Below, one piece after another: positions 6,475 to 50,988 of a stretch of 64,000 nt of DNA. The first letter of the stretch is position 1, and the number at the start of each line of letters is the position of its first letter. The notes beneath the pieces were generated by a model that was not told the origin of the DNA, did no database searches, and was given only the letters and a program-made list of their open reading frames with translations. Where the stretch lies: assembly GCA_027451625.1 (NCBI GenBank), contig DAIDIY010000048.1:26917-90916 (forward strand), written 5' to 3'. Source of the stretch: Candidatus Daviesbacteria bacterium (GTDB taxonomy: Bacteria; Patescibacteriota; Microgenomatia; Daviesbacterales; UBA10151). A program made the translations under genes and the position numbers.

Positions 6475-6486
6475 ATATTTAACTGT

Positions 6487-7818
6487 TTATCCTCTAATCT
6501 CTCGATTTAATACCGCATTATCAGCAATTTTTTTACCAAACACATCCGCAAGTTCTTGCCATAGGTCATTCCTTCCTTGGTCATTACCTAAGGCCCAAAT
6601 ACCAATACCTTCTAAATTCTTTTGCTTTGCTAAATCATACTTTAATGCCAACGATTTGGGATTATCCATAAAAACCATTCTCCAAGTTCCCAAGCTATTA
6701 TCATAATACGAAGTCCATTCCACTTGACCATTCTTGTCCCAACCTTGAGTCACATTGCCAAGTTGTCCAGAGGTCAAACTATTCATAAAATCGGAGTAAG
6801 TTTCAGAAATATTTGACCCCCACCAAGAAGAAGGCCTAACTAGCGCTAAAATTCCCGGCTGATAGACCATGTAGTTATACCCGTACCATGGAACTCCTAA
6901 GATTAATTTGTCTGCAGGAATTTTAGAAAGAAAATCATTAACAGCTGTAGTTACATCATACCAATACTGTCCATCCTGTGCTCCATTAAGAGGTGCTGTA
7001 GGAATCGCGTTGGCTGAACTTGCATTCGCAAAATCATAAGCCATCATAAAGATTCCGTCTGAAACCTGAGACAGCGCAGATACGTCATAAAGTTTAGGTT
7101 CCTTAGCTGAGGCTGCATAAACTGATACAGTAACTCTGGAATCGGGGTTTAACTGATGCATCTTTTTAGTTAAATCAGAAACAAAATTAGTAAAATTATT
7201 TCGTAGGTCATTTCCAGGATCACCTTGATATTCAAAATCAATATTAACTCCATCTATACCTCTGCTCATAACCTCCGAAACAGTCTGGTTGATTGCATTT
7301 TGAAAGGCTACGGGATCATCTAGAATACTCTCAATCGTAGAGTTATCCATCTGAATAATAGTCAAGACTACTCTTGTACCATAACTATGCGCTCTAGTAA
7401 AAAGATCCGTCGCCTGACTACTTTTAAAAGTAAGATAACCTGGATCATAACGATCTAAGCTTCCATCCGCTTCTACTGGTACTCCAAAATAAGCTAATGT
7501 AGTTAGTGTATTAAAATCAACATTATCTAATTTATCAATATTCCAGTATGGCATAAAACCGAAAACCTCTTTTTGAGTTAAATCTTCTTGTAATGGATGT
7601 AAAGCAGTTGAACTAGAGATAGCTGAGCTACTTATAGTATTCGATACTCCTAAATTAAAAGAAAAAATTACCGGCAAAATAGAGACTAAGATACTCGCAT
7701 TATTAACACGAAAAATTGATGAGATATCTATTAATCTTAATCTGAATTTAAAAATTAATATTTCTTCCGAAATATAGGATTTAATCTTACTTGGCAGTTG
7801 TGTTAGGTAATTCCCCAT
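6487..7818 (-). CDS. glycoside hydrolase family 18-like (chitinase or peptidoglycan hydrolase-like), membrane anchored
   Basis: DGVNIDFEY matches the GH18 catalytic DxxDxDxE motif; N-terminal TM segment. Confidence 0.65.
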   Translation of the reverse strand: MGNYLTQLPSKIKSYISEEILIFKFRLRLIDISSIFRVNNASILVSILPVIFSFNLGVSNTISSSAISSSTALHPLQEDLTQKEVFGFMPYWNIDKLDNVDFNTLTTLAYFGVPVEADGSLDRYDPGYLTFKSSQATDLFTRAHSYGTRVVLTIIQMDNSTIESILDDPVAFQNAINQTVSEVMSRGIDGVNIDFEYQGDPGNDLRNNFTNFVSDLTKKMHQLNPDSRVTVSVYAASAKEPKLYDVSALSQVSDGIFMMAYDFANASSANAIPTAPLNGAQDGQYWYDVTTAVNDFLSKIPADKLILGVPWYGYNYMVYQPGILALVRPSSWWGSNISETYSDFMNSLTSGQLGNVTQGWDKNGQVEWTSYYDNSLGTWRMVFMDNPKSLALKYDLAKQKNLEGIGIWALGNDQGRNDLWQELADVFGKKIADNAVLNREIRG

Positions 7819-13550: not shown

Positions 13551-13622
13551 GGCAGGGTAGCTTAGAGGAAGAGCAACACATTCATAACGTGTAGGCCATG
13601 GGTTCGAATCCCATCCCTGCTA
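13551..13622 (+). tRNA. tRNA with anticodon CAT (elongator Met, or Ile2 if lysidinylated)
   Basis: Acceptor GGCAGGG/CCCTGCT (G1-U72 wobble), anticodon loop TTCATAA, T-arm ATGGG-TTCGAAT-CCCAT. No 3-GC run in the anticodon stem, so it is not the initiator. Confidence 0.65.
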
Positions 13623-13662
13623 CTTTTTTAGTGGTATATTAACTTCAAAAATAAAATCTATG

Positions 13663-13734
13663 TTGCGGGGCTGGGATTCGAACCCAGGACCTCGAGATTA
13701 TGAGCCTCGCGAGCTGCCACTGCTCTACCCCGCG
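13663..13734 (-). tRNA. initiator tRNA-fMet (CAT)
   Basis: Minus-strand sequence CGCGGGGTAGAGCAG...CTCATAA...CCCCGCAA is near-identical to E. coli tRNA-fMet, including the C1-A72 mismatch. Confidence 0.85.
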
Positions 13735-15159: not shown

Positions 15160-15177
15160 ATTCATAAAAGTATAGAG

Positions 15178-15249
15178 TGCGCCTGCTTGGGATCGAACCA
15201 AGGACATCTACTTTATAAGAGTAGCGCTCTACCACTGAGCTACAGGCGC
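15178..15249 (-). tRNA. tRNA-Ile (anticodon TAT/UAU)
   Basis: Minus-strand read GCGCCTG-TA-GCTCAGTGGTAGAGC-G-CTACT-CTTATAA-AGTAG-ATGTC-CTTGG-TTCGATC-CCAAG-CAGGCGC-A. The 7-nt anticodon loop has UAU at positions 34-36. Confidence 0.7.
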
Positions 15250-24590: not shown

Positions 24591-24888
24591 TCCTCGATAG
24601 CTCAACGGTAGAGCGGCTCGCTGTAAGCTATAGAAATATTTCGTATAGAGATATACAATTTGCAGCTTCCAAGAGAAATTTTGGAATGATAACTGGGTTA
24701 ATTGCGAAAAGCCTATAAAAATGGTAATCCGCAGCCAAGGGATAAGTTATTTATTCAAGGTTCAGAGACTATACGCCCGGATCCTAAGTCTGGTAAATAT
24801 AGATAAGGATAAGAGATAGTCCAAGCCTTAAGGAAACTTAGGGGCACTTGTAACGAGAAGGTTCCTGGTTCGAATCCAGGTCGAGGAG
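24591..24888 (+). tRNA. tRNA-Asn (GUU) interrupted by a group I intron in the anticodon loop
   Basis: 5' exon TCCTCGA-TA-GCTC-AACGGTA-GAGC-G-GCTCG-CTGT (24591-24624). 3' exon TAA-CGAGA-AGGTT-CCTGG-TTCGAAT-CCAGG-TCGAGGA-G followed by CCA (24851-24888). Acceptor stem is a perfect 7 bp with G73 discriminator; ends match E. coli tRNA-Asn. The spliced loop would be CTGTTAA. Confidence 0.8.
24625..24850 (+). ncRNA. group I self-splicing intron (IC3-like) within tRNA-Asn
   Basis: 226 nt. 5' exon ends in U and the intron ends in G. P-like AATTGCGAAAAGCC (~24699-24713); Q AATCCGCAGC (24726-24735); R GGTTCAGAGACTA (24759-24771); S AAGAGATAGTCC (24811-24822), giving P7 GACUA/UAGUC. A candidate IGS GCAGC (~24657) can pair with exon GCUGU using a U-G pair. 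Confidence 0.75.
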
Positions 24889-25345
24889 CCAAGCTTGACG
24901 ATCAGCGAAATTTAAGATCGTATCAAAGGGTTTTATAGCGTCATATCGGACTAATTTGCTTTATACCCTTAGGTTCGATAGTACAAGATTGATCAACTAC
25001 CTTCTTTCTTCAACTTCAGCACTTTTGAATAATTCATAAGCATTGTTTGCCAGTTCCAAAAGGTATTTAGACGTGATGTAGTAGTTATCCTCAGCTTCTT
25101 GCAGTAAAGCAATTCGGGTATCAATATCTGCTAACTGATCACGGAAAATTGATAAAATCTGTCATACTCATTGTCAGTAATTCTCCAAAGTATCTTACAT
25201 CCGGAAACTCTTGAATTATTAAAGAGAAATCCAAGGCTAGGGGAGCAAAAGTATAAAAAGATCTCTCAAACCCCCTAAAGTCTTTTTAATTATAAGCATT
25301 TTTCCTTGACACAAACTTTTAGTAGAGTAATACTAAATAGAGAAG

Positions 25346-32744: not shown

Positions 32745-33323
32745 TTATACGCTGACTCGATGGGGATTTTCCAGGGGAAAATGCTTTTGAATGCTTTCCG
32801 CCCATCTATCAAACATTGTTTTAGGAGGAATTTCGTGAAAAGGGATAAACCGAGCAATAATCTCTTTGACAGCATCTTCATTTAAATCTCCAGGCATTAA
32901 AATTAGCTCTCCAGGAAAGCGTAAGTGAGTCCAAATGTGTATTAATCTATATCCATCTTTATCAGCAAACCAAAATGAATCAAGAACTTCCCAAAGATAA
33001 AAATGGTCTCCGATTGTCACCCCTTGAGTTGATACTTTATAAGGGATACTCTCAGGTTGCACATATGCTAAAACAAAAGTTATGAATGCAACCGCAAGGA
33101 TTGCTCCTATCAAAAGCATCTCATTAATTAAAAACGAAATTAGAGTTAGCAGTACTACAATTATCATAATAGTAGTGTAGTAAGATCTGTCCTTCCTACG
33201 ATAAGGTCTTGCTGGTGCTTGCCAGGAGAGGAGTGTTCTAACTGGCAAATCTGAGGCATAGCTGCTTATTTGTATCGAGGAGGGCAAAGAAGATTTGTTT
33301 TCTTTAACAAAGACTTTGGGCAT
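32745..33323 (-). CDS. hypothetical membrane protein
   Basis: 192-aa ORF with two central TM helices. No motif recognised. Confidence 0.4.
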   Translation of the reverse strand: MPKVFVKENKSSLPSSIQISSYASDLPVRTLLSWQAPARPYRRKDRSYYTTIMIIVVLLTLISFLINEMLLIGAILAVAFITFVLAYVQPESIPYKVSTQGVTIGDHFYLWEVLDSFWFADKDGYRLIHIWTHLRFPGELILMPGDLNEDAVKEIIARFIPFHEIPPKTMFDRWAESIQKHFPLENPHRVSV

Positions 33324-33416
33324 ATCCTTAGTGTACTTTGGATAACAGCTAGTGTACAGAGACTACTTGAATACAAACACTAAATCTTAAGTTAAAGTTA
33401 ACTGACAATTATCATG

Positions 33417-33803
33417 TGGAGACGGAGGGAGTGACCCTCGTGTGAACTTACAAAATAAAAACACCTACAAGCTTAGCTGATATATTTATAAGTAAAAGAT
33501 GTAACCTATCAGCAGGAAATCATTTACTTGATTCAATATTCTTAATAATCTCAGTTGAATCTGACCAAAATTACTGCATTCTGACTGTTGTACGTATTCT
33601 AAGCTTCCGCCAGAAAAGAAATTCTTAGAATACCGTTATGCTGCTAACGCGTATCCAACTTGAGGCTGGACTAACGCCGCAAACATTTCGGATGCTTTAT
33701 TTTTTAGATTAGCATCTATTTTTGAAACAATATTTTACGAATAATGTTTCCTGTTCGGCTTGCAGTTTTTAAAGTGCGAAGTACATCGAATCTGTACGTC
33801 CCC
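33417..33803 (-). ncRNA. ssrA: tmRNA (transfer-messenger RNA)
   Basis: Minus strand. 5' end GGGGACGTACAGATTCGATG matches the tmRNA 5' consensus (GGGG...GATTCGAC). 3' end has a T-arm-like GAGGGTCACTCCCTC, and an acceptor 3' strand CGTCTCC that pairs with the 5' GGGGACG. Internal tag ORF ...GCA TCC GAA ATG TTT GCG GCG TTA GTC CAG CCT CAA GTT GGA TAC GCG TTA GCA GCA TAA ends in YALAA-stop. smpB lies 1.1 kb away. Confidence 0.75.
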
Positions 33804-33855
33804 GTAAGCATATTTTAACATATAAACAGCTGCACCTCAAGTAAATCTTGTAGTG

Positions 33856-34533
33856 TCACGACTTTTGATACAGTTTAACAAACTCAAATGGTGTTTTGTA
33901 ATCTAAAGCTTGATGAGGTCTCCACGTATTGTAGCTGTTAATGAATTCTTGTATCCACTGATTAAGCTGTCCAATATGCTCAGGTCTATTCTCCAGCCAG
34001 TAGTAGAACTCATCTTGATCAGTCCTGAATGACCTTTCAATGACTGCATATTCGAAAACTGTAAAAGGTAATCCACCTAGCTCTGGAGTAACATGTTTAG
34101 TATCCATTTGTAGATAACCTAATGATTTAGTATTTCTTGGCCTCATAGCATGACCATTCTGGAATTTAGGTCTTCTGTATTGTACCTGTTTTGTTATTAA
34201 GTTTTTGTTTTTTAGCAGTCTATGGATTGTTCTCCATGAAGCAGATACACCATCTACATAAGCTAGCTCTCTTGCTGCTACATGTTTTCTACTTCTGATT
34301 TTGATCAACTTTTCAGCCTCCAAAACAGATATTTTGTAATTGATAGTTTTGGGTCTGGTAGATCTTCTCCTCAATCCTCTAGTAGTCAAATGTAATCTGT
34401 TATGAACAGATTTAGCTCTTTTGATCCATCTGTAAACAGTCGGTCTTGATATACCGAGATCTCTGGAAGTTTTAGTAATGGAATTACTCTCTTTAAATGA
34501 ATAAATAATTTCTTTAACTTCAATTCGTTTCAT
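33856..34533 (-). mobile_element. IS-family transposase (HTH plus rve/DDE integrase core; possibly truncated)
   Basis: N-terminal HTH (SRDLGISRPTVYRWIKR); C-terminal rve signature YNTWRPHQALDYKTPFEF. 225 aa is short for IS481/IS3/IS30-type enzymes. I found no clear terminal inverted repeats. Confidence 0.55.
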
Positions 34534-34709
34534 ACATTCATTACTAGTGTAACAAATGTCATGTCACCTTAAGGGAAATTGGAAGCTGAATCCGACACAG
34601 GATCATAAGATAAAACAATTAGCCTTAATAATAACTTAGATAAAGCAGTCCACGGCTAGCGAATATCATTAAGCGATGATATACTAAAGAATGTCATTTA
34701 GGCGTAACA

Positions 34710-34794
34710 GGAGGGGTCGCATAGTGGTCTAGTGCGGCGGTCTTGAAAACCGCTGTGTCGTAAGGCACCGTGAGTTCGAATCTCACCCCCTCCG
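34710..34794 (+). tRNA. tRNA-Ser (UGA), type II
   Basis: Acceptor GGAGGGG/CCCCTCC, anticodon stem-loop GCGGT-CTTGAAA-ACCGC, long variable arm, T-arm GTGAG-TTCGAAT-CTCAC, discriminator G. Confidence 0.8.
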
Positions 34795-34847
34795 CCTAAA
34801 AAAGACTTTTGGTTGAAAATACTAGTTGGAGTAAATTTGTAGAATCA

Positions 34848-34935
34848 GGAGAGGTCGCATAGTTGGTCTAGTGCGGCGCAGTGCTAATGCGCTGTCCGAG
34901 AAATCGGACCGTGGGTTCGAATCCCACCCTCTCCG
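34848..34935 (+). tRNA. tRNA-Ser (GCU), type II
   Basis: Acceptor GGAGAGG/CCTCTCC, anticodon stem-loop GCGCA-GTGCTAA-TGCGC, long variable arm, T-arm GTGGG-TTCGAAT-CCCAC. Confidence 0.8.
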
Positions 34936-34958
34936 CTTTGATATTGAATTTTCTCAAT

Positions 34959-35399
34959 TTATATTTTACCTCTCAATTCTTGCTCAATTCGACGCAAATG
35001 GTCGCGATCTTTAAGTGCTTTTCTTTTATCAAATTCCCTTTTGCTTTTACCTACCCCTAACTGTAATTTAATAAAATTATTCTTATCGTAGAAAGATAAG
35101 GGAACAAGGACCATCTTACCTCCAGATATTTTACCAATAAGAGTCTTAATTTGATCTTCATGTAATAATAATTTACGACTCCTACTTGGGGTATAACCTT
35201 CAATATGAGAGTTTTTATAAAGAGGTATATTCGCATTAACTAAAAATACTTCCCCACTAATAATTCGAGCAAAACTCTGGCCTAGATCAGCTCGACCTTG
35301 TCTTAAAGATTTCACTTCTGAACCAAGTAAGACAACTCCTGTCTCTATTGATTCTAGAATATGATAATTCCTATAAGCTTCTTTGTTAACGATTCGCAT
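34959..35399 (-). CDS. smpB: SsrA-binding protein
   Basis: NKEAYRNYHILE...GVVLLGSEVKSLR and C-terminal GKSKREFDKRKALKDRD are characteristic of SmpB. Confidence 0.9.
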   Translation of the reverse strand: MRIVNKEAYRNYHILESIETGVVLLGSEVKSLRQGRADLGQSFARIISGEVFLVNANIPLYKNSHIEGYTPSRSRKLLLHEDQIKTLIGKISGGKMVLVPLSFYDKNNFIKLQLGVGKSKREFDKRKALKDRDHLRRIEQELRGKI

Positions 35400-50629: not shown

Positions 50630-50988
50630 GCTTTCTCCTGCTCGGGATATAAATATCTTTAGAAAACTTCCAGCACAAAATTTTAATCTTCTATCTTTGT
50701 TTTCTAAAAATGATGGTCGGTCTCCGGACTTATCAAAATAAATTGAATTACCGTTGCGGCACAGTTCTCGAATTACACGAGATTCCCTTCTTTGAATCTT
50801 ATCTGTTGTCTACAGACGATTCACCACAACTGAAATTTACTCCAACTTTTTTTGAAAAACAAGAGGGTAAACACGTTCATACTAACTTGCTAAGTTGTAC
50901 ATCCAAATAAGTCTTATTAATGAGTAATTGATCTACTTTGAACTTCTTGTCACGTATTTTTTCACGCTGTATAAAGATGGAGTAAAGT

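What the first reader, a model, noticed from the sequence alone, without database searches (positions are those of the whole stretch)
33417..34533. tmRNA gene with a YALAA-ending tag, and a transposase wedged between smpB and ssrA
The 530-bp ORF-free stretch encodes a tmRNA on the minus strand. The 5' GGGGACGTACAGATTCGATG and 3' acceptor CGTCTCC pair. The T-arm-like GGGTCACTCCC is shortened. The internal reading frame ends GYALAA-UAA. smpB lies 1.1 kb upstream on the same strand, but a 225-aa rve-type transposase (possibly truncated) and two tRNA-Ser genes sit between them. tmRNA and tRNA genes are hot spots for mobile-element insertion. The short T-loop and the long apparent tag (up to ~19 codons before YALAA) are worth verifying.
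Basis: partly seen in the sequence, partly recalled or inferred. Interest (0 to 1): 0.5.

Follow-up and report, generated by a model that had tools for sequence, protein, structure and literature searches.

The report
CPR tmRNA gene beside decayed IS
This is a genuine ribosome-rescue RNA (tmRNA) gene of an uncultured Patescibacteria (CPR) bacterium; it is ordinary in function, but its whole lineage has an unusually small T-loop and a long degradation tag, and a dead insertion sequence sits just upstream of its promoter.

Summary
Rfam's tmRNA model matches window 33414-33803 (-) at 90 bits against a threshold of 47. The acceptor stem, G3·U70, A73, the 25-codon tag ANLKNKASEMFAALVQPQVGYALAA-UAA and the intact smpB 1155 bp upstream are all present.

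ARAGORN misses the gene only because the T-loop has 5 nt (UCACU) instead of 7. Swapping in UUCGAAU in silico restores the call, with the same tag.

The short T arm is not damage. Nine independent relatives with SmpB at least 61% identical share a 5-bp stem plus 5-nt loop, with compensatory changes. All of them have also lost the first G of the D-loop-like GG doublet.

The "transposase" is a dead IS481-like element at 33847-34573. It has an in-frame 225-bp deletion that removes the second catalytic Asp. Both ends and a 5/6 target duplication are recognisable. It lies immediately upstream of the ssrA -35 box.

The IS is not the only cause of the smpB-ssrA gap. In relatives ssrA follows smpB by about 47 bp; here two tRNA-Ser genes have also moved in.

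There is no integrase island. This is a new member of a known kind, with a modestly interesting lineage-specific T-arm variant.

The parts
33417..33803 (-). ssrA, a standard one-piece tmRNA gene of 387 nt up to the discriminator A. CCA is not encoded; the next bases are CAU.
   Evidence: Rfam RF00023 at 90 bits against a threshold of 47, full model 1-374. MFE fold z = -4.1, with the acceptor stem and T arm formed.
33797..33803 (-). Acceptor stem 5' strand, GGGGACG, including G3 of the G3·U70 pair.
   Evidence: All 7 pairs form in 8 of 8 distinct clade sequences.
33792..33793 (-). D-loop-analog doublet. It reads AG where tmRNAs with a canonical T-loop read GG.
   Evidence: Rfam alignment; none of 15 tmRNAs with a non-canonical T arm has GG, while all 27 canonical ones do.
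33636..33713 (-). Tag reading frame. Resume codon GCU at 33713-33711, preceded by UAGAU. There are 25 codons, ANLKNKASEMFAALVQPQVGYALAA, and the stop UAA is at 33638-33636.
   Evidence: Sequence. ARAGORN reports the same tag after in-silico T-loop repair. Relatives keep the same frame, with a conserved ASQVF..L..GQP..YALAA pattern.
33425..33439 (-). T arm: stem GAGGG (33439-33435), 5-nt loop UCACU (33434-33430), stem CCCUC (33429-33425).
   Evidence: In one search the stem is 100% paired, 3 of 5 pairs show compensatory changes, and 0 of 500 shuffles reach that score.
33417..33424 (-). Acceptor stem 3' strand CGUCUCC (33424-33418) plus discriminator A73 (33417).
33812..33840 (-). Putative ssrA promoter: TTGAGG, 17-nt spacer, (TG)TAAAAT. 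It ends 8 nt before the mature 5' end.
   Evidence: Consensus scan, 9 of 12 matches with a TG extension. The same layout (TTGATT-17-TAAAAT) precedes ssrA in L002-L005. This is a consensus match only; transcription was not shown.
33847..34573 (-). Decayed IS481-like insertion sequence, 727 bp. Adding back the 225 deleted bp gives 952 bp.
   Evidence: The ends were defined by aligning to full-length copies L126-L130. IRL is CTTAAGGTGACA (34573-34562). IRR is TGACACTACAAG (33858-33847). The two match at 8 of 12 positions. No second copy is present in the window.
33856..34533 (-). Transposase remnant ORF of 225 aa. It keeps the HTH, the first Asp (MDTKH) and the Glu (VIERSF), but has lost 75 aa including the IQTDNGLE Asp.
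   Evidence: Pfam gives HTH_23 and rve_3 only. NCBIfam IS481 scores 82 bits for this ORF and 162.5 bits for P0002, against a cut-off of 224.
34044..34049 (-). Deletion junction, lying inside an ATGCAG microhomology.
   Evidence: DNA alignment with L128: TATGCAG...AATGCTG flank the 225 missing bp.
33841..33846 (-). Right copy of the target-site duplication, ATTTAC.
   Evidence: L129 shows a perfect 6-bp duplication, GGGGGC/GGGGGC.
34574..34579 (-). Left copy of the target-site duplication, ATTTCC (5 of 6 identical to the right copy).
34710..34796 (+). tRNA-Ser(UGA), on the strand opposite smpB and ssrA.
   Evidence: ARAGORN and Rfam tRNA.
34848..34936 (+). tRNA-Ser(GCU), on the strand opposite smpB and ssrA.
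   Evidence: ARAGORN and Rfam tRNA.
34959..35399 (-). smpB, 146 aa. This is the tmRNA partner protein and it is full length.
   Evidence: Pfam SmpB 150.6 bits, covering profile positions 3-142 of 143. 61-72% identical to SmpB of Daviesbacteria and Microgenomates MAGs.
32745..33323 (-). Conserved 192-aa membrane-like protein immediately downstream of ssrA. It marks the end of the rearranged segment.
   Evidence: 53-55% identical to the 184-204-aa gene that follows the tRNA-Ser pair in L004 and L005. No Pfam or NCBIfam hit.

Best explanation
Window 33417-33803 (-) is the working ssrA (tmRNA) gene of a Patescibacteria (CPR) bacterium, probably Daviesbacteria-like.

The likely mechanism is the standard one.
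- The gene is transcribed from its own sigma-70-like promoter (TTGAGG-17-TAAAAT).
- The transcript is trimmed and given CCA after transcription, because the gene encodes A-CAU rather than A-CCA.
- It is charged with alanine through G3·U70 and A73, and bound by the SmpB encoded 1.1 kb upstream.
- It enters stalled ribosomes, where translation resumes at GCU (33713-33711).
- This appends (A)ANLKNKASEMFAALVQPQVGYALAA, a long degradation tag that keeps the classic YALAA end.

Its tRNA-like domain carries a lineage-specific minimal elbow.
- The T arm is a 5-bp stem with a 5-nt UCAHH loop instead of a 7-nt TΨC loop. This keeps the 12-bp acceptor/T-stem stack.
- The first G of the D-loop-like GG doublet has been replaced by A.
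- I infer that the G19-C56-type contact is kept, while the T54-A58 and G18-Ψ55 contacts are given up.

A roughly 952-bp IS481-like element inserted into a TCCA-ATTTNC-TTGA target directly upstream of the -35 box. It duplicated 6 bp, then lost 225 bp by deletion between ATGCNG microhomologies, which removed a catalytic Asp. It is now immobile.

The separation of smpB from ssrA results from this IS (733 bp) plus an independent local rearrangement. That rearrangement moved the tRNA-Ser pair between the two genes and removed the phosphoribosyltransferase gene that follows ssrA in relatives.

Shown here: gene identity, ends, pairing and covariation, reading frame, IS anatomy, synteny.
Inferred: transcription, processing, charging, tag function, the tertiary contacts, and the order of the rearrangement events.
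For: Identity of the gene
- Rfam full-length match, 90 bits against 47.
- Intact SmpB.

Tag
- The tag frame is recovered independently by ARAGORN once only the T-loop is changed to UUCGAAU.
- Relatives have in-frame tags of 15-29 aa with shared motifs.

T arm
- All 9 distinct tmRNAs whose neighbouring SmpB is at least 61% identical, from different metagenomes, share the 15-nt T arm.
- The loop-closing pair is C:G, U:A or G:C. Two further pairs are compensated in the window copy. No shuffle out of 500 matches this.
- Sister tmRNAs (SmpB 52-57% identical) have 17-nt arms in which positions 54 and 60 are C:G, G:C or A:U. That again leaves a 5-nt UCAWW loop.

D-loop analog and detection
- The GG doublet is present in 27 of 27 tmRNAs with a canonical T-loop and in 0 of 15 with a non-canonical one.
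- ARAGORN finds 26 of 27 of the former and 1 of 15 of the latter.
- Rfam finds all of them.

IS element
- Alignment with 300-aa relatives shows the 75-aa gap and the 225-bp gap with microhomology.

Synteny
- In L002, L004, L005 and L054 ssrA starts about 47 bp after smpB.
- The phosphoribosyltransferase gene is absent from the window, and the 192-aa gene is orthologous to the one in relatives.
Against: - No expression, processing or charging data exist for any member of this clade.
[quoted passage not shown] A tmRNA lacking the canonical motif is therefore not guaranteed to behave identically.
- The covariation sample is small: 8 distinct TLD sequences. Two of the three compensated pairs rest on the window sequence alone.
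- The association between GG and T-loop type may reflect one or a few ancestral events rather than repeated co-evolution.
- The IS inverted repeats are short and imperfect (8 of 12), and the window's target duplication is 5 of 6.
- The promoter is only a consensus match, and the whole region has as many such matches as shuffled sequence does.
Confidence: 0.88

Rival explanations
1. The T arm is really a 4-bp stem with a 7-nt loop, x-UCAHH-y. On this view it is a near-canonical T-loop sitting on a stem shortened by one pair, not a 5-nt loop.
For: In L005 and L060 the seven bases read UUCAAUA, which fits the canonical T54-Ψ55-C56-R57-A58 pattern. The conserved U-C-A would occupy positions 55-57.
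Against: - The outer loop bases are always Watson-Crick complementary: C:G, U:A and G:C in the clade, and C:G, G:C and A:U in the sister group.
- Position '54' is C or G in most members, and '58' is C in the window. The U54-A58 reverse-Hoogsteen pair therefore cannot form in most of them.
- A 4-bp T stem would shorten the 12-bp acceptor/T stack that EF-Tu, RNase P and the CCA-adding enzyme measure. That last point is established knowledge, not tested here.
Confidence: 0.2
2. The ssrA copy is a decaying pseudogene. On this view the shortened T-loop and the nearby IS are signs that trans-translation is being lost in a reduced genome.
For: Loss or degradation of tmRNA or SmpB is documented in some highly reduced genomes (PMC4131195). 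ARAGORN does not recognise the gene.
Against: - The same T arm is conserved, with compensatory changes, in at least 9 independent relatives.
- The acceptor stem, G3·U70, the resume context, the open tag frame and the stop codon are all intact.
- SmpB is full length.
- The IS lies outside the gene and outside its core promoter.
Confidence: 0.03
3. The IS remnant still matters. Either read-through from the open 225-aa ORF, or the junction the IS created, now contributes to ssrA transcription. Alternatively, the HTH-only protein has been domesticated as a DNA-binding regulator.
For: - The ORF is still open after an in-frame deletion, and it points toward ssrA with only 52 bp between them.
- The HTH domain is intact.
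- The element's preferred target half-site, TTGA, coincides with the -35 box.
Against: - Relatives without any IS have an equivalent TTGATT-17-TAAAAT promoter in front of ssrA, so no IS contribution is needed.
- There is only one copy and no close homologues of the deleted form (in one search only the window protein itself is 225 aa), so selection on it cannot be assessed.
- An in-frame deletion leaves an ORF open by chance one time in three.
Confidence: 0.12
4. ssrA served as the attachment site of an integrase-type genomic island or prophage, the classic 'tmRNA hot spot'. On this view the transposase and tRNA genes are island cargo.
For: tmRNA genes are frequent integration sites for genomic islands (PMC11915505 abstract). 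The neighbourhood is rearranged relative to relatives.
Against: - No second copy of the ssrA 3' end exists in the 64-kb window, even allowing 3 mismatches.
- The gene downstream of the 3' end is the conserved 192-aa neighbour.
- The mobile element is a DDE-type IS with its own inverted repeats and target duplication, located upstream of the 5' end.
- No integrase was seen in this region.
Confidence: 0.02

Closest known systems
Standard one-piece bacterial tmRNA (Rfam RF00023; for example E. coli SsrA) with SmpB
   Same: - Full-length match to the covariance model.
- 7-bp acceptor stem with G3·U70 and A73.
- T arm stacked on the acceptor stem.
- Resume codon for Ala preceded by a UAGNN context.
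- Tag ending in YALAA followed by UAA.
- smpB in the neighbourhood.
   Different: - The T-loop has 5 nt (UCACU) instead of 7 (UUCRANY).
- The D-loop-like GG doublet is AG.
- The tag has 25 codons, where about 10 is usual (PMC3968760).
- CCA is not encoded.
- The gene is invisible to ARAGORN.
tmRNAs of other Daviesbacteria / Microgenomates MAGs (loci L002-L005, L007, L054, L083, L112)
   Same: - Same 15-nt T arm.
- Same 5' GGGGACGUA(C/U)AGAUUCGA.
- Long tags of 15-29 aa with shared motifs.
- ssrA next to smpB.
- All are missed by ARAGORN and found by Rfam.
   Different: - The window copy has G:C as the loop-closing pair and two other compensated stem pairs.
- Its loop is UCACU.
- It is the only one separated from smpB by tRNA genes plus an IS. 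L083 has a RHH/PIN cassette in that position instead.
Long-tag tmRNAs of Mycoplasma (about 27 residues; recalled from memory, not checked here)
   Same: The tag is far longer than the usual 10 residues, in an organism with a small genome.
   Different: Here the C-terminus stays YALAA-like. It has not switched to a different degron. Which protease reads it is unknown.
IS481-family insertion sequences (NCBIfam NF033577)
   Same: - Single ORF with an N-terminal HTH and an rve DDE core in full-length relatives.
- Size of about 950 bp.
- Short terminal inverted repeats.
- 6-bp target duplication.
   Different: - Full-length relatives score 162.5 bits, below the curated cut-off of 224.
- The ends are CTTAAGG/CTTGTAG.
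- The window copy lacks 75 aa, including the second catalytic Asp, so it cannot transpose on its own.
Genomic islands and prophages integrated at the 3' end of ssrA
   Same: A mobile element lies next to a tmRNA gene.
   Different: The mechanism and the side are both different. This is a DDE transposition upstream of the promoter. There is no integrase and no duplicated ssrA 3' end.

Membership tests
tmRNA, standard one-piece form (Rfam RF00023) | Covariance-model score at or above the curated gathering score, over the whole model | tested here: met
   90 bits against 47, model positions 1-374 of 374, E 1e-34.
tmRNA, standard one-piece form (Rfam RF00023) | 7-bp acceptor stem formed by the 5' and 3' ends, with the G3·U70 alanine identity pair and discriminator A | tested here: met
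   GGGGACG pairs with CGUCUCC, followed by A. All 7 pairs form in 8 of 8 clade sequences, with G·U at pair 3.
tmRNA, standard one-piece form (Rfam RF00023) | T arm (5-bp stem) directly stacked on the acceptor 3' strand | tested here: met
   GAGGG/CCCUC. The stem is 100% paired and 3 of 5 pairs are compensated across the clade.
tmRNA, standard one-piece form (Rfam RF00023) | Canonical 7-nt TΨC loop plus the GG doublet in the D-loop analog. This is a highly conserved typical feature, and I do not treat it as defining. | tested here: not met
   The loop is UCACU (5 nt) and the doublet is AG. This is the sole reason ARAGORN fails. The T-loop is described as highly conserved in PMC1168896.
tmRNA, standard one-piece form (Rfam RF00023) | Internal tag reading frame: a resume codon in the conserved upstream context, an in-frame stop, and a hydrophobic ALAA-type end | tested here: met
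   GCU after AAAAAUAGAU, then 25 codons to UAA. The frame is conserved in relatives.
tmRNA, standard one-piece form (Rfam RF00023) | Pseudoknots PK1-PK4 around the mRNA-like domain | tested here: inconclusive
   The model alignment spans these regions, but with low posterior probabilities in parts. Individual pseudoknots were not tested for covariation.
tmRNA, standard one-piece form (Rfam RF00023) | Partner SmpB encoded in the genome | tested here: met
   Pfam SmpB 150.6 bits, full length, at 34959-35399.
tmRNA, standard one-piece form (Rfam RF00023) | Alanylation and trans-translation activity | not testable with these tools
   Needs biochemistry or in-vivo data.
IS481-family insertion sequence | Transposase with an intact DDE (rve) catalytic core | tested here: not met
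   The window ORF lacks 75 aa, including the IQTDNGLE Asp, and Pfam rve (PF00665) is not matched. Full-length relatives P0002 and others have it.
IS481-family insertion sequence | NCBIfam NF033577 score above the curated cut-off | tested here: not met
   162.5 bits for full-length P0002 and 82 bits for the window ORF, against a cut-off of 224. IS481 is nevertheless the best-scoring family. It is therefore 'IS481-like', not a filed member.
IS481-family insertion sequence | Terminal inverted repeats and a short target-site duplication | tested here: met
   IRL CTTAAGGTGACA and IRR CTTGTAGTGTCA match at 8 of 12 positions. The 6-bp duplication is perfect in L129 (GGGGGC) and 5 of 6 in the window.
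Integrase-type genomic island at ssrA | Direct repeat of the ssrA 3' end bounding the island | tested here: not met
   There is only one match to the last 23 nt of ssrA in the 64-kb window, allowing up to 3 mismatches.
Integrase-type genomic island at ssrA | Tyrosine or serine integrase gene adjacent to the 3' end of ssrA | tested here: not met
   The downstream gene is the conserved 192-aa neighbour found in relatives.

The most novel reading that the evidence does not exclude
Daviesbacteria-type CPR tmRNAs, this one included, may represent a distinct architecture of the tRNA-like domain.

- The canonical T-loop motif has been replaced by a 5-nt UCAHH loop on an extended or retained stem.
- The G18-equivalent has been lost in step with it, leaving at most a G19-C56-like elbow contact.
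- If so, SmpB binding, T-loop modification (m5U54, Ψ55) and the ribosome and enzyme contacts with the elbow are relaxed or rewired in this lineage.
- It would also mean this lineage is systematically under-called by ARAGORN-based annotation and database pipelines.
Probability: 0.45. Interest if true: 0.55.

Novelty: new member of a known kind. Interest (0 to 1): 0.35.

Why it matters
- Annotation. tmRNA finders that require a 7-nt T-loop miss this whole lineage. ARAGORN called 0 of 9 distinct clade members, and 1 of 15 tmRNAs with non-canonical T arms overall. The main pass of the published tmRNA database pipeline relies on ARAGORN and BLASTN hits (PMC11915505). Apparent "tmRNA-less" CPR genomes may therefore be false negatives.
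- Mechanism. D-loop/T-loop contacts are regarded as necessary for SmpB binding and function in E. coli (PMC3968760). A natural lineage that shrank the T-loop and changed the partner G offers a ready-made test of how much of the tRNA elbow trans-translation actually needs.
- Genome dynamics. The locus shows that the normally tight smpB-ssrA pair is repeatedly broken up in these small genomes: by inversions, by a toxin-antitoxin cassette, and by a tRNA pair plus an IS. In none of these cases is either gene damaged.

Tried and rejected
Searches that led nowhere
- Exact-sequence look-ups of the window's SmpB and transposase returned no contig record. The cluster look-up gave only 'NCBI, 97,194-bp contig', without names.
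Relatives had to come from protein hits plus contig look-ups and from one metagenome pattern scan.
- The generic repeat finder did not reveal the IS ends, because the inverted repeats are short and imperfect. They emerged only on comparison with full-length copies.
- The closest SmpB relative, L131 at 72% identity, has only 80 bp after smpB. No ssrA start appears in those 80 bp, so it could not show the ancestral arrangement.
- Literature searches combining tmRNA with CPR, Patescibacteria, Microgenomates or OP11 found no paper describing these T arms. This covers the held library only.

Readings considered and rejected
- Pseudogene. Rejected on conservation and covariation.
- Assembly error. 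Rejected because the same arm appears in contigs from many projects.
- Permuted or two-piece tmRNA. Rejected because the standard model matches end to end.
- Group I intron in the T-loop. Rejected because the arm is contiguous.
- Integrase island at the 3' end.
- Terminal truncation of the transposase. It is an internal, in-frame deletion.

Not resolved
- The exact series of rearrangements that moved the tRNA-Ser pair and removed the phosphoribosyltransferase gene.
Full report
**1. Observation**

Rfam's tmRNA model (RF00023) matches window 33414-33803 on the minus strand. The score is 90 bits against a gathering score of 47, E about 1e-34, covering model positions 1-374 of 374. ARAGORN reports six tRNAs in the region but no tmRNA.

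The sequence shows the following.
- The 5' GGGGACG (33803-33797) pairs with CGUCUCC (33424-33418), with G·U at the third pair.
- The discriminator A is at 33417. It is followed by CAU, so CCA is not encoded.
- The T arm is GAGGG-UCACU-CCCUC (33439-33425).
- A reading frame starts at GCU (33713-33711), preceded by AAAAAUAGAU. It runs 25 codons to UAA (33638-33636) and encodes ANLKNKASEMFAALVQPQVGYALAA.
- The RNA folds more stably than shuffled sequence (z = -4.1), with the acceptor stem and T arm formed.

- smpB is at 34959-35399 (-), with a full-length Pfam match of 150.6 bits.
- Two tRNA-Ser genes lie on the opposite strand, at 34710-34796 and 34848-34936.
- A 225-aa ORF at 33856-34533 (-) matches HTH and rve_3 only.

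**2. Why ARAGORN misses the gene, and the tag**

I ran ARAGORN in the sandbox on edited versions of the region.
- The wild-type region gives no call.
- Changing AG to GG in the 5' region does not help.
- Adding CCA does not help.
- Replacing only the 5-nt loop UCACU with UUCGAAU produces a tmRNA call.

That call has the same resume site and the same 25-residue tag I had read by eye. The short T-loop is therefore the sole cause of the miss. The tag assignment rests on two independent routes.

**3. Organism and relatives**

The best named SmpB hits, at 61-72% identity, are from Candidatus Daviesbacteria, the Microgenomates group and Patescibacteria MAGs. The window's own proteins are on record only as coming from a 97,194-bp NCBI contig.

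I fetched four relatives' loci, L002-L005. One metagenome scan then used a pattern that does not constrain the T arm: GCTAAGCTTGTAG-N30-55-CGTCTCCA. It gave 120 further loci.

**4. The short T arm is a lineage trait**

Nine distinct tmRNAs carry a 15-nt T arm of 5 bp plus a 5-nt loop. They are the window, L002-L005, L007, L054, L083 and L112. The loops are UCAAU, UCACU or UCACA. These are exactly the loci whose adjacent SmpB is at least 61% identical to the window's.

The pairing test on the TLD alignment gave these results.
- The T stem is 100% paired.
- Three of five pairs show changes on both sides. The closing pair is C:G, U:A or G:C. The window also carries G:C for A:U and A:U for G:C.
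- No shuffle out of 500 reaches this, and every slid register collapses to 51-64% paired.

The next-closest group (SmpB 52-57% identical; L024/L079 and L124, plus L093) keeps a 17-nt arm. Its loop reads C-UCAUA-G, G-UCAAU-C or A-UCAUA-U. The outer bases are again Watson-Crick, which leaves the same 5-nt loop on a 6-bp stem.

More distant tmRNAs, with SmpB at most 49% identical, mostly have the canonical UUCRAYY loop.

A plausible path runs in two steps. First, positions 54 and 60 became a pair. Then one stem pair was lost, which restored a 5-bp stem and the 12-bp acceptor/T stack. This path is inferred.

**5. Correlated change in the D-loop analog**

I compared 43 unique full-length tmRNAs from the same scan.
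- All 27 with a canonical T-loop read GG before (A/G)UUCGA. ARAGORN finds 26 of them.
- All 15 with non-canonical T arms read AG or UG, or lack the doublet. ARAGORN finds 1 of them.
- One further pattern match, L073, is not a tmRNA T arm.
- Rfam finds every member of the non-canonical set, at 71-139 bits.

In tRNA, G18-Ψ55 and G19-C56 join the D and T loops. That is established knowledge. [quoted passage not shown] An earlier comparative study called the T-loop and its helix highly conserved (PMC1168896).

The conserved U-C-A in the small loop, together with the retained second G, suggests that a G-C elbow contact survives while the T54-A58 and G18-Ψ55 contacts do not. This is inference. The association could also stem from very few ancestral events.

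The tRNAs in the window have normal T-loops, so the change is specific to tmRNA.

**6. Long tags**

Tags in the clade are 15-29 residues and those of the sister group are 22-38. tmRNAs with canonical T-loops from the same scan have 7-12. The usual length is about 10 (PMC3968760).

Aligned tags share A(K/N)xK...ASQVF.L...GQP...(Y)ALAA, with an invariant Pro and a near-invariant Tyr. The window's YALAA end is the classic form.

Which protease reads the tag could not be examined from this window. Neither could any function of the N-terminal extension.

**7. The transposase is a dead IS**

Relatives of the 225-aa ORF are 299-303 aa and carry Pfam rve (PF00665), which the window protein lacks.

Alignment shows an in-frame 75-aa gap between FEYA and VIERS. 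The gap removes the IQTDNGLE Asp of the DDE triad. At the DNA level, 225 bp are missing between TATGCAG and AATGCTG, a microhomology-mediated deletion.

Comparison with full-length copies L126-L130 defines the ends.
- The left end is CTTAAGGTGACA, at 34573-34562.
- The right end is TGACACTACAAG, at 33858-33847.
- The two match at 8 of 12 positions as inverted repeats.
- The remnant is 727 bp, or 952 bp when restored. That matches the many roughly 950-bp contigs that carry relatives.

L129 shows a perfect 6-bp target duplication, GGGGGC, within TCAA-N6-TTGA. The window has ATTTCC and ATTTAC (5 of 6 identical) within TCCA-N6-TTGA.

The best family match is IS481, but below NCBI's cut-off: 162.5 bits against 224 for a full-length relative. 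I therefore call the element IS481-like. No second copy or end exists in the window.

**8. Position relative to ssrA**

The right target duplication abuts TTGAGG (33840-33835). Together with a 17-nt spacer and TG-TAAAAT (33817-33812), this forms a sigma-70-like promoter ending 8 nt before the mature 5' end.

Relatives have TTGATT-17-TAAAAT or TAGAAT in the 47-bp smpB-ssrA spacer. The IS therefore landed just outside the core promoter.

This is a consensus match. Transcription was not shown.

**9. Synteny**

The conserved order in L002-L005 is SpoIID, 190-aa gene, DUF5657, roughly 600-aa gene, smpB, ssrA, phosphoribosyltransferase, tRNA-Ser pair, roughly 190-aa gene, tRNA-Arg/Ser/Arg, NUDIX, FtsJ.

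The window differs in three ways.
- It has smpB, then the tRNA-Ser pair on the opposite strand and in reversed order, then the IS, ssrA and the 192-aa orthologue.
- The phosphoribosyltransferase gene is absent from all 64 kb.
- Removing the IS and one target copy would still leave 422 bp, including two tRNA genes, between smpB and ssrA.

The neighbourhood is unstable across the clade.
- ssrA is tandem to smpB in L002, L004, L005 and L054.
- It is convergent with smpB in L003/L067, L112, L007/L074 and L060.
- L083 carries a RHH/PIN toxin-antitoxin-like pair in the spacer.

smpB-ssrA adjacency is otherwise the rule in the loci recovered, and it is the most frequent smpB neighbourhood in the literature (PMC4131195).

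**10. No integrase island**

The last 23 nt of ssrA occur only once in the window, even allowing three mismatches. The downstream gene is the conserved neighbour. The classic ssrA-as-attB scenario does not apply.

**11. Comparison with what is known, and novelty**

Functionally this is an ordinary tmRNA-SmpB system, and the contig is already public. I file it as a new member of a known kind.

Its T-arm and D-loop variant, shared with its clade, departs from a segment regarded as the most conserved part of tmRNA. I found no description of it in the searchable library.

The 2025 tmRNA database paper lists 5,275 Patescibacteria tmRNAs for 6,765 genomes. Its main search pass used ARAGORN and BLASTN candidates only. 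Curators may therefore have seen such sequences without commenting on them, or may under-sample them. I could not check this.

**12. Verdict**

Interest is modest at 0.35. Most of the value lies in the lineage-wide minimal T-loop and its effect on annotation, rather than in the IS.

Noticed in passing
window 24597-24907 (+): A tRNA gene is interrupted in its anticodon loop by a group I intron (Rfam RF00028, 24643-24843, 80.6 bits). ARAGORN does not call the tRNA. Applying the usual -1 U and terminal G boundary rules joins the exons as CU-GUU-AA. That gives tRNA-Asn(GUU), with discriminator G73.
   Followed up: partly
window 50698-50843 (-): Cobalamin riboswitch aptamer (Rfam RF00174, 51.4 bits against 31.5).
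   Followed up: no
window 13551-13734 and 15177-15249: Two tRNA-Met(CAU) genes lie back to back on opposite strands, and there is a tRNA-Ile with the rare UAU anticodon.
   Followed up: no
L083 480-1162: In a clade relative, the smpB-ssrA spacer holds a RHH (CopG-like, 21 bits) plus PIN-domain (50 bits) gene pair that looks like a VapBC-type toxin-antitoxin cassette. This is a second, independent invasion of the same spacer.
   Followed up: partly
L003/L067, L112, L007/L074, L060 versus L002, L004, L005, L054: The orientation of ssrA relative to smpB flips between tandem and convergent among close relatives. The orientation and order of the tRNA-Ser(GCU)/tRNA-Ser(UGA) pair also vary.
   Followed up: partly
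L002 6488-6931: This relative's tmRNA carries an extra GC-rich hairpin of about 43 nt inserted in the PK4 region, making the gene 441 nt long.
   Followed up: no
L126-L130 and window 33835-33846 / 34574-34583: The IS family appears to prefer a palindromic target, TCAA-N6-TTGA. The TTGA half-site resembles a -35 box, and in the window it coincides with the ssrA -35 box.
   Followed up: partly
L003 7980-8441 (-): ARAGORN reports a permuted 'tmRNA*' overlapping tRNA-Ser(GCU). This looks like a false positive, because the real tmRNA found by Rfam is at 6476-6869.
   Followed up: no
L045, L051, L027, L047, L008 (T arms): Other, more distant tmRNAs from the same scan have 6-nt loops (UUCGCC, UUCAAC, CUCACC) or non-canonical 7-nt loops (UUCAUUG, AGCAAUG). 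Those whose 5' end was recovered (L045, L047, L051) lack the GG doublet; L027 and L008 were not checked. T-loop erosion may therefore be broader than the window's clade.
   Followed up: partly
L002 9349-10338 and 11415-12401: Two roughly 330-aa ORFs with faint or weak LAGLIDADG_3 hits flank the tRNA-Ser pair in this relative. They may be homing-endonuclease-like genes.
   Followed up: no
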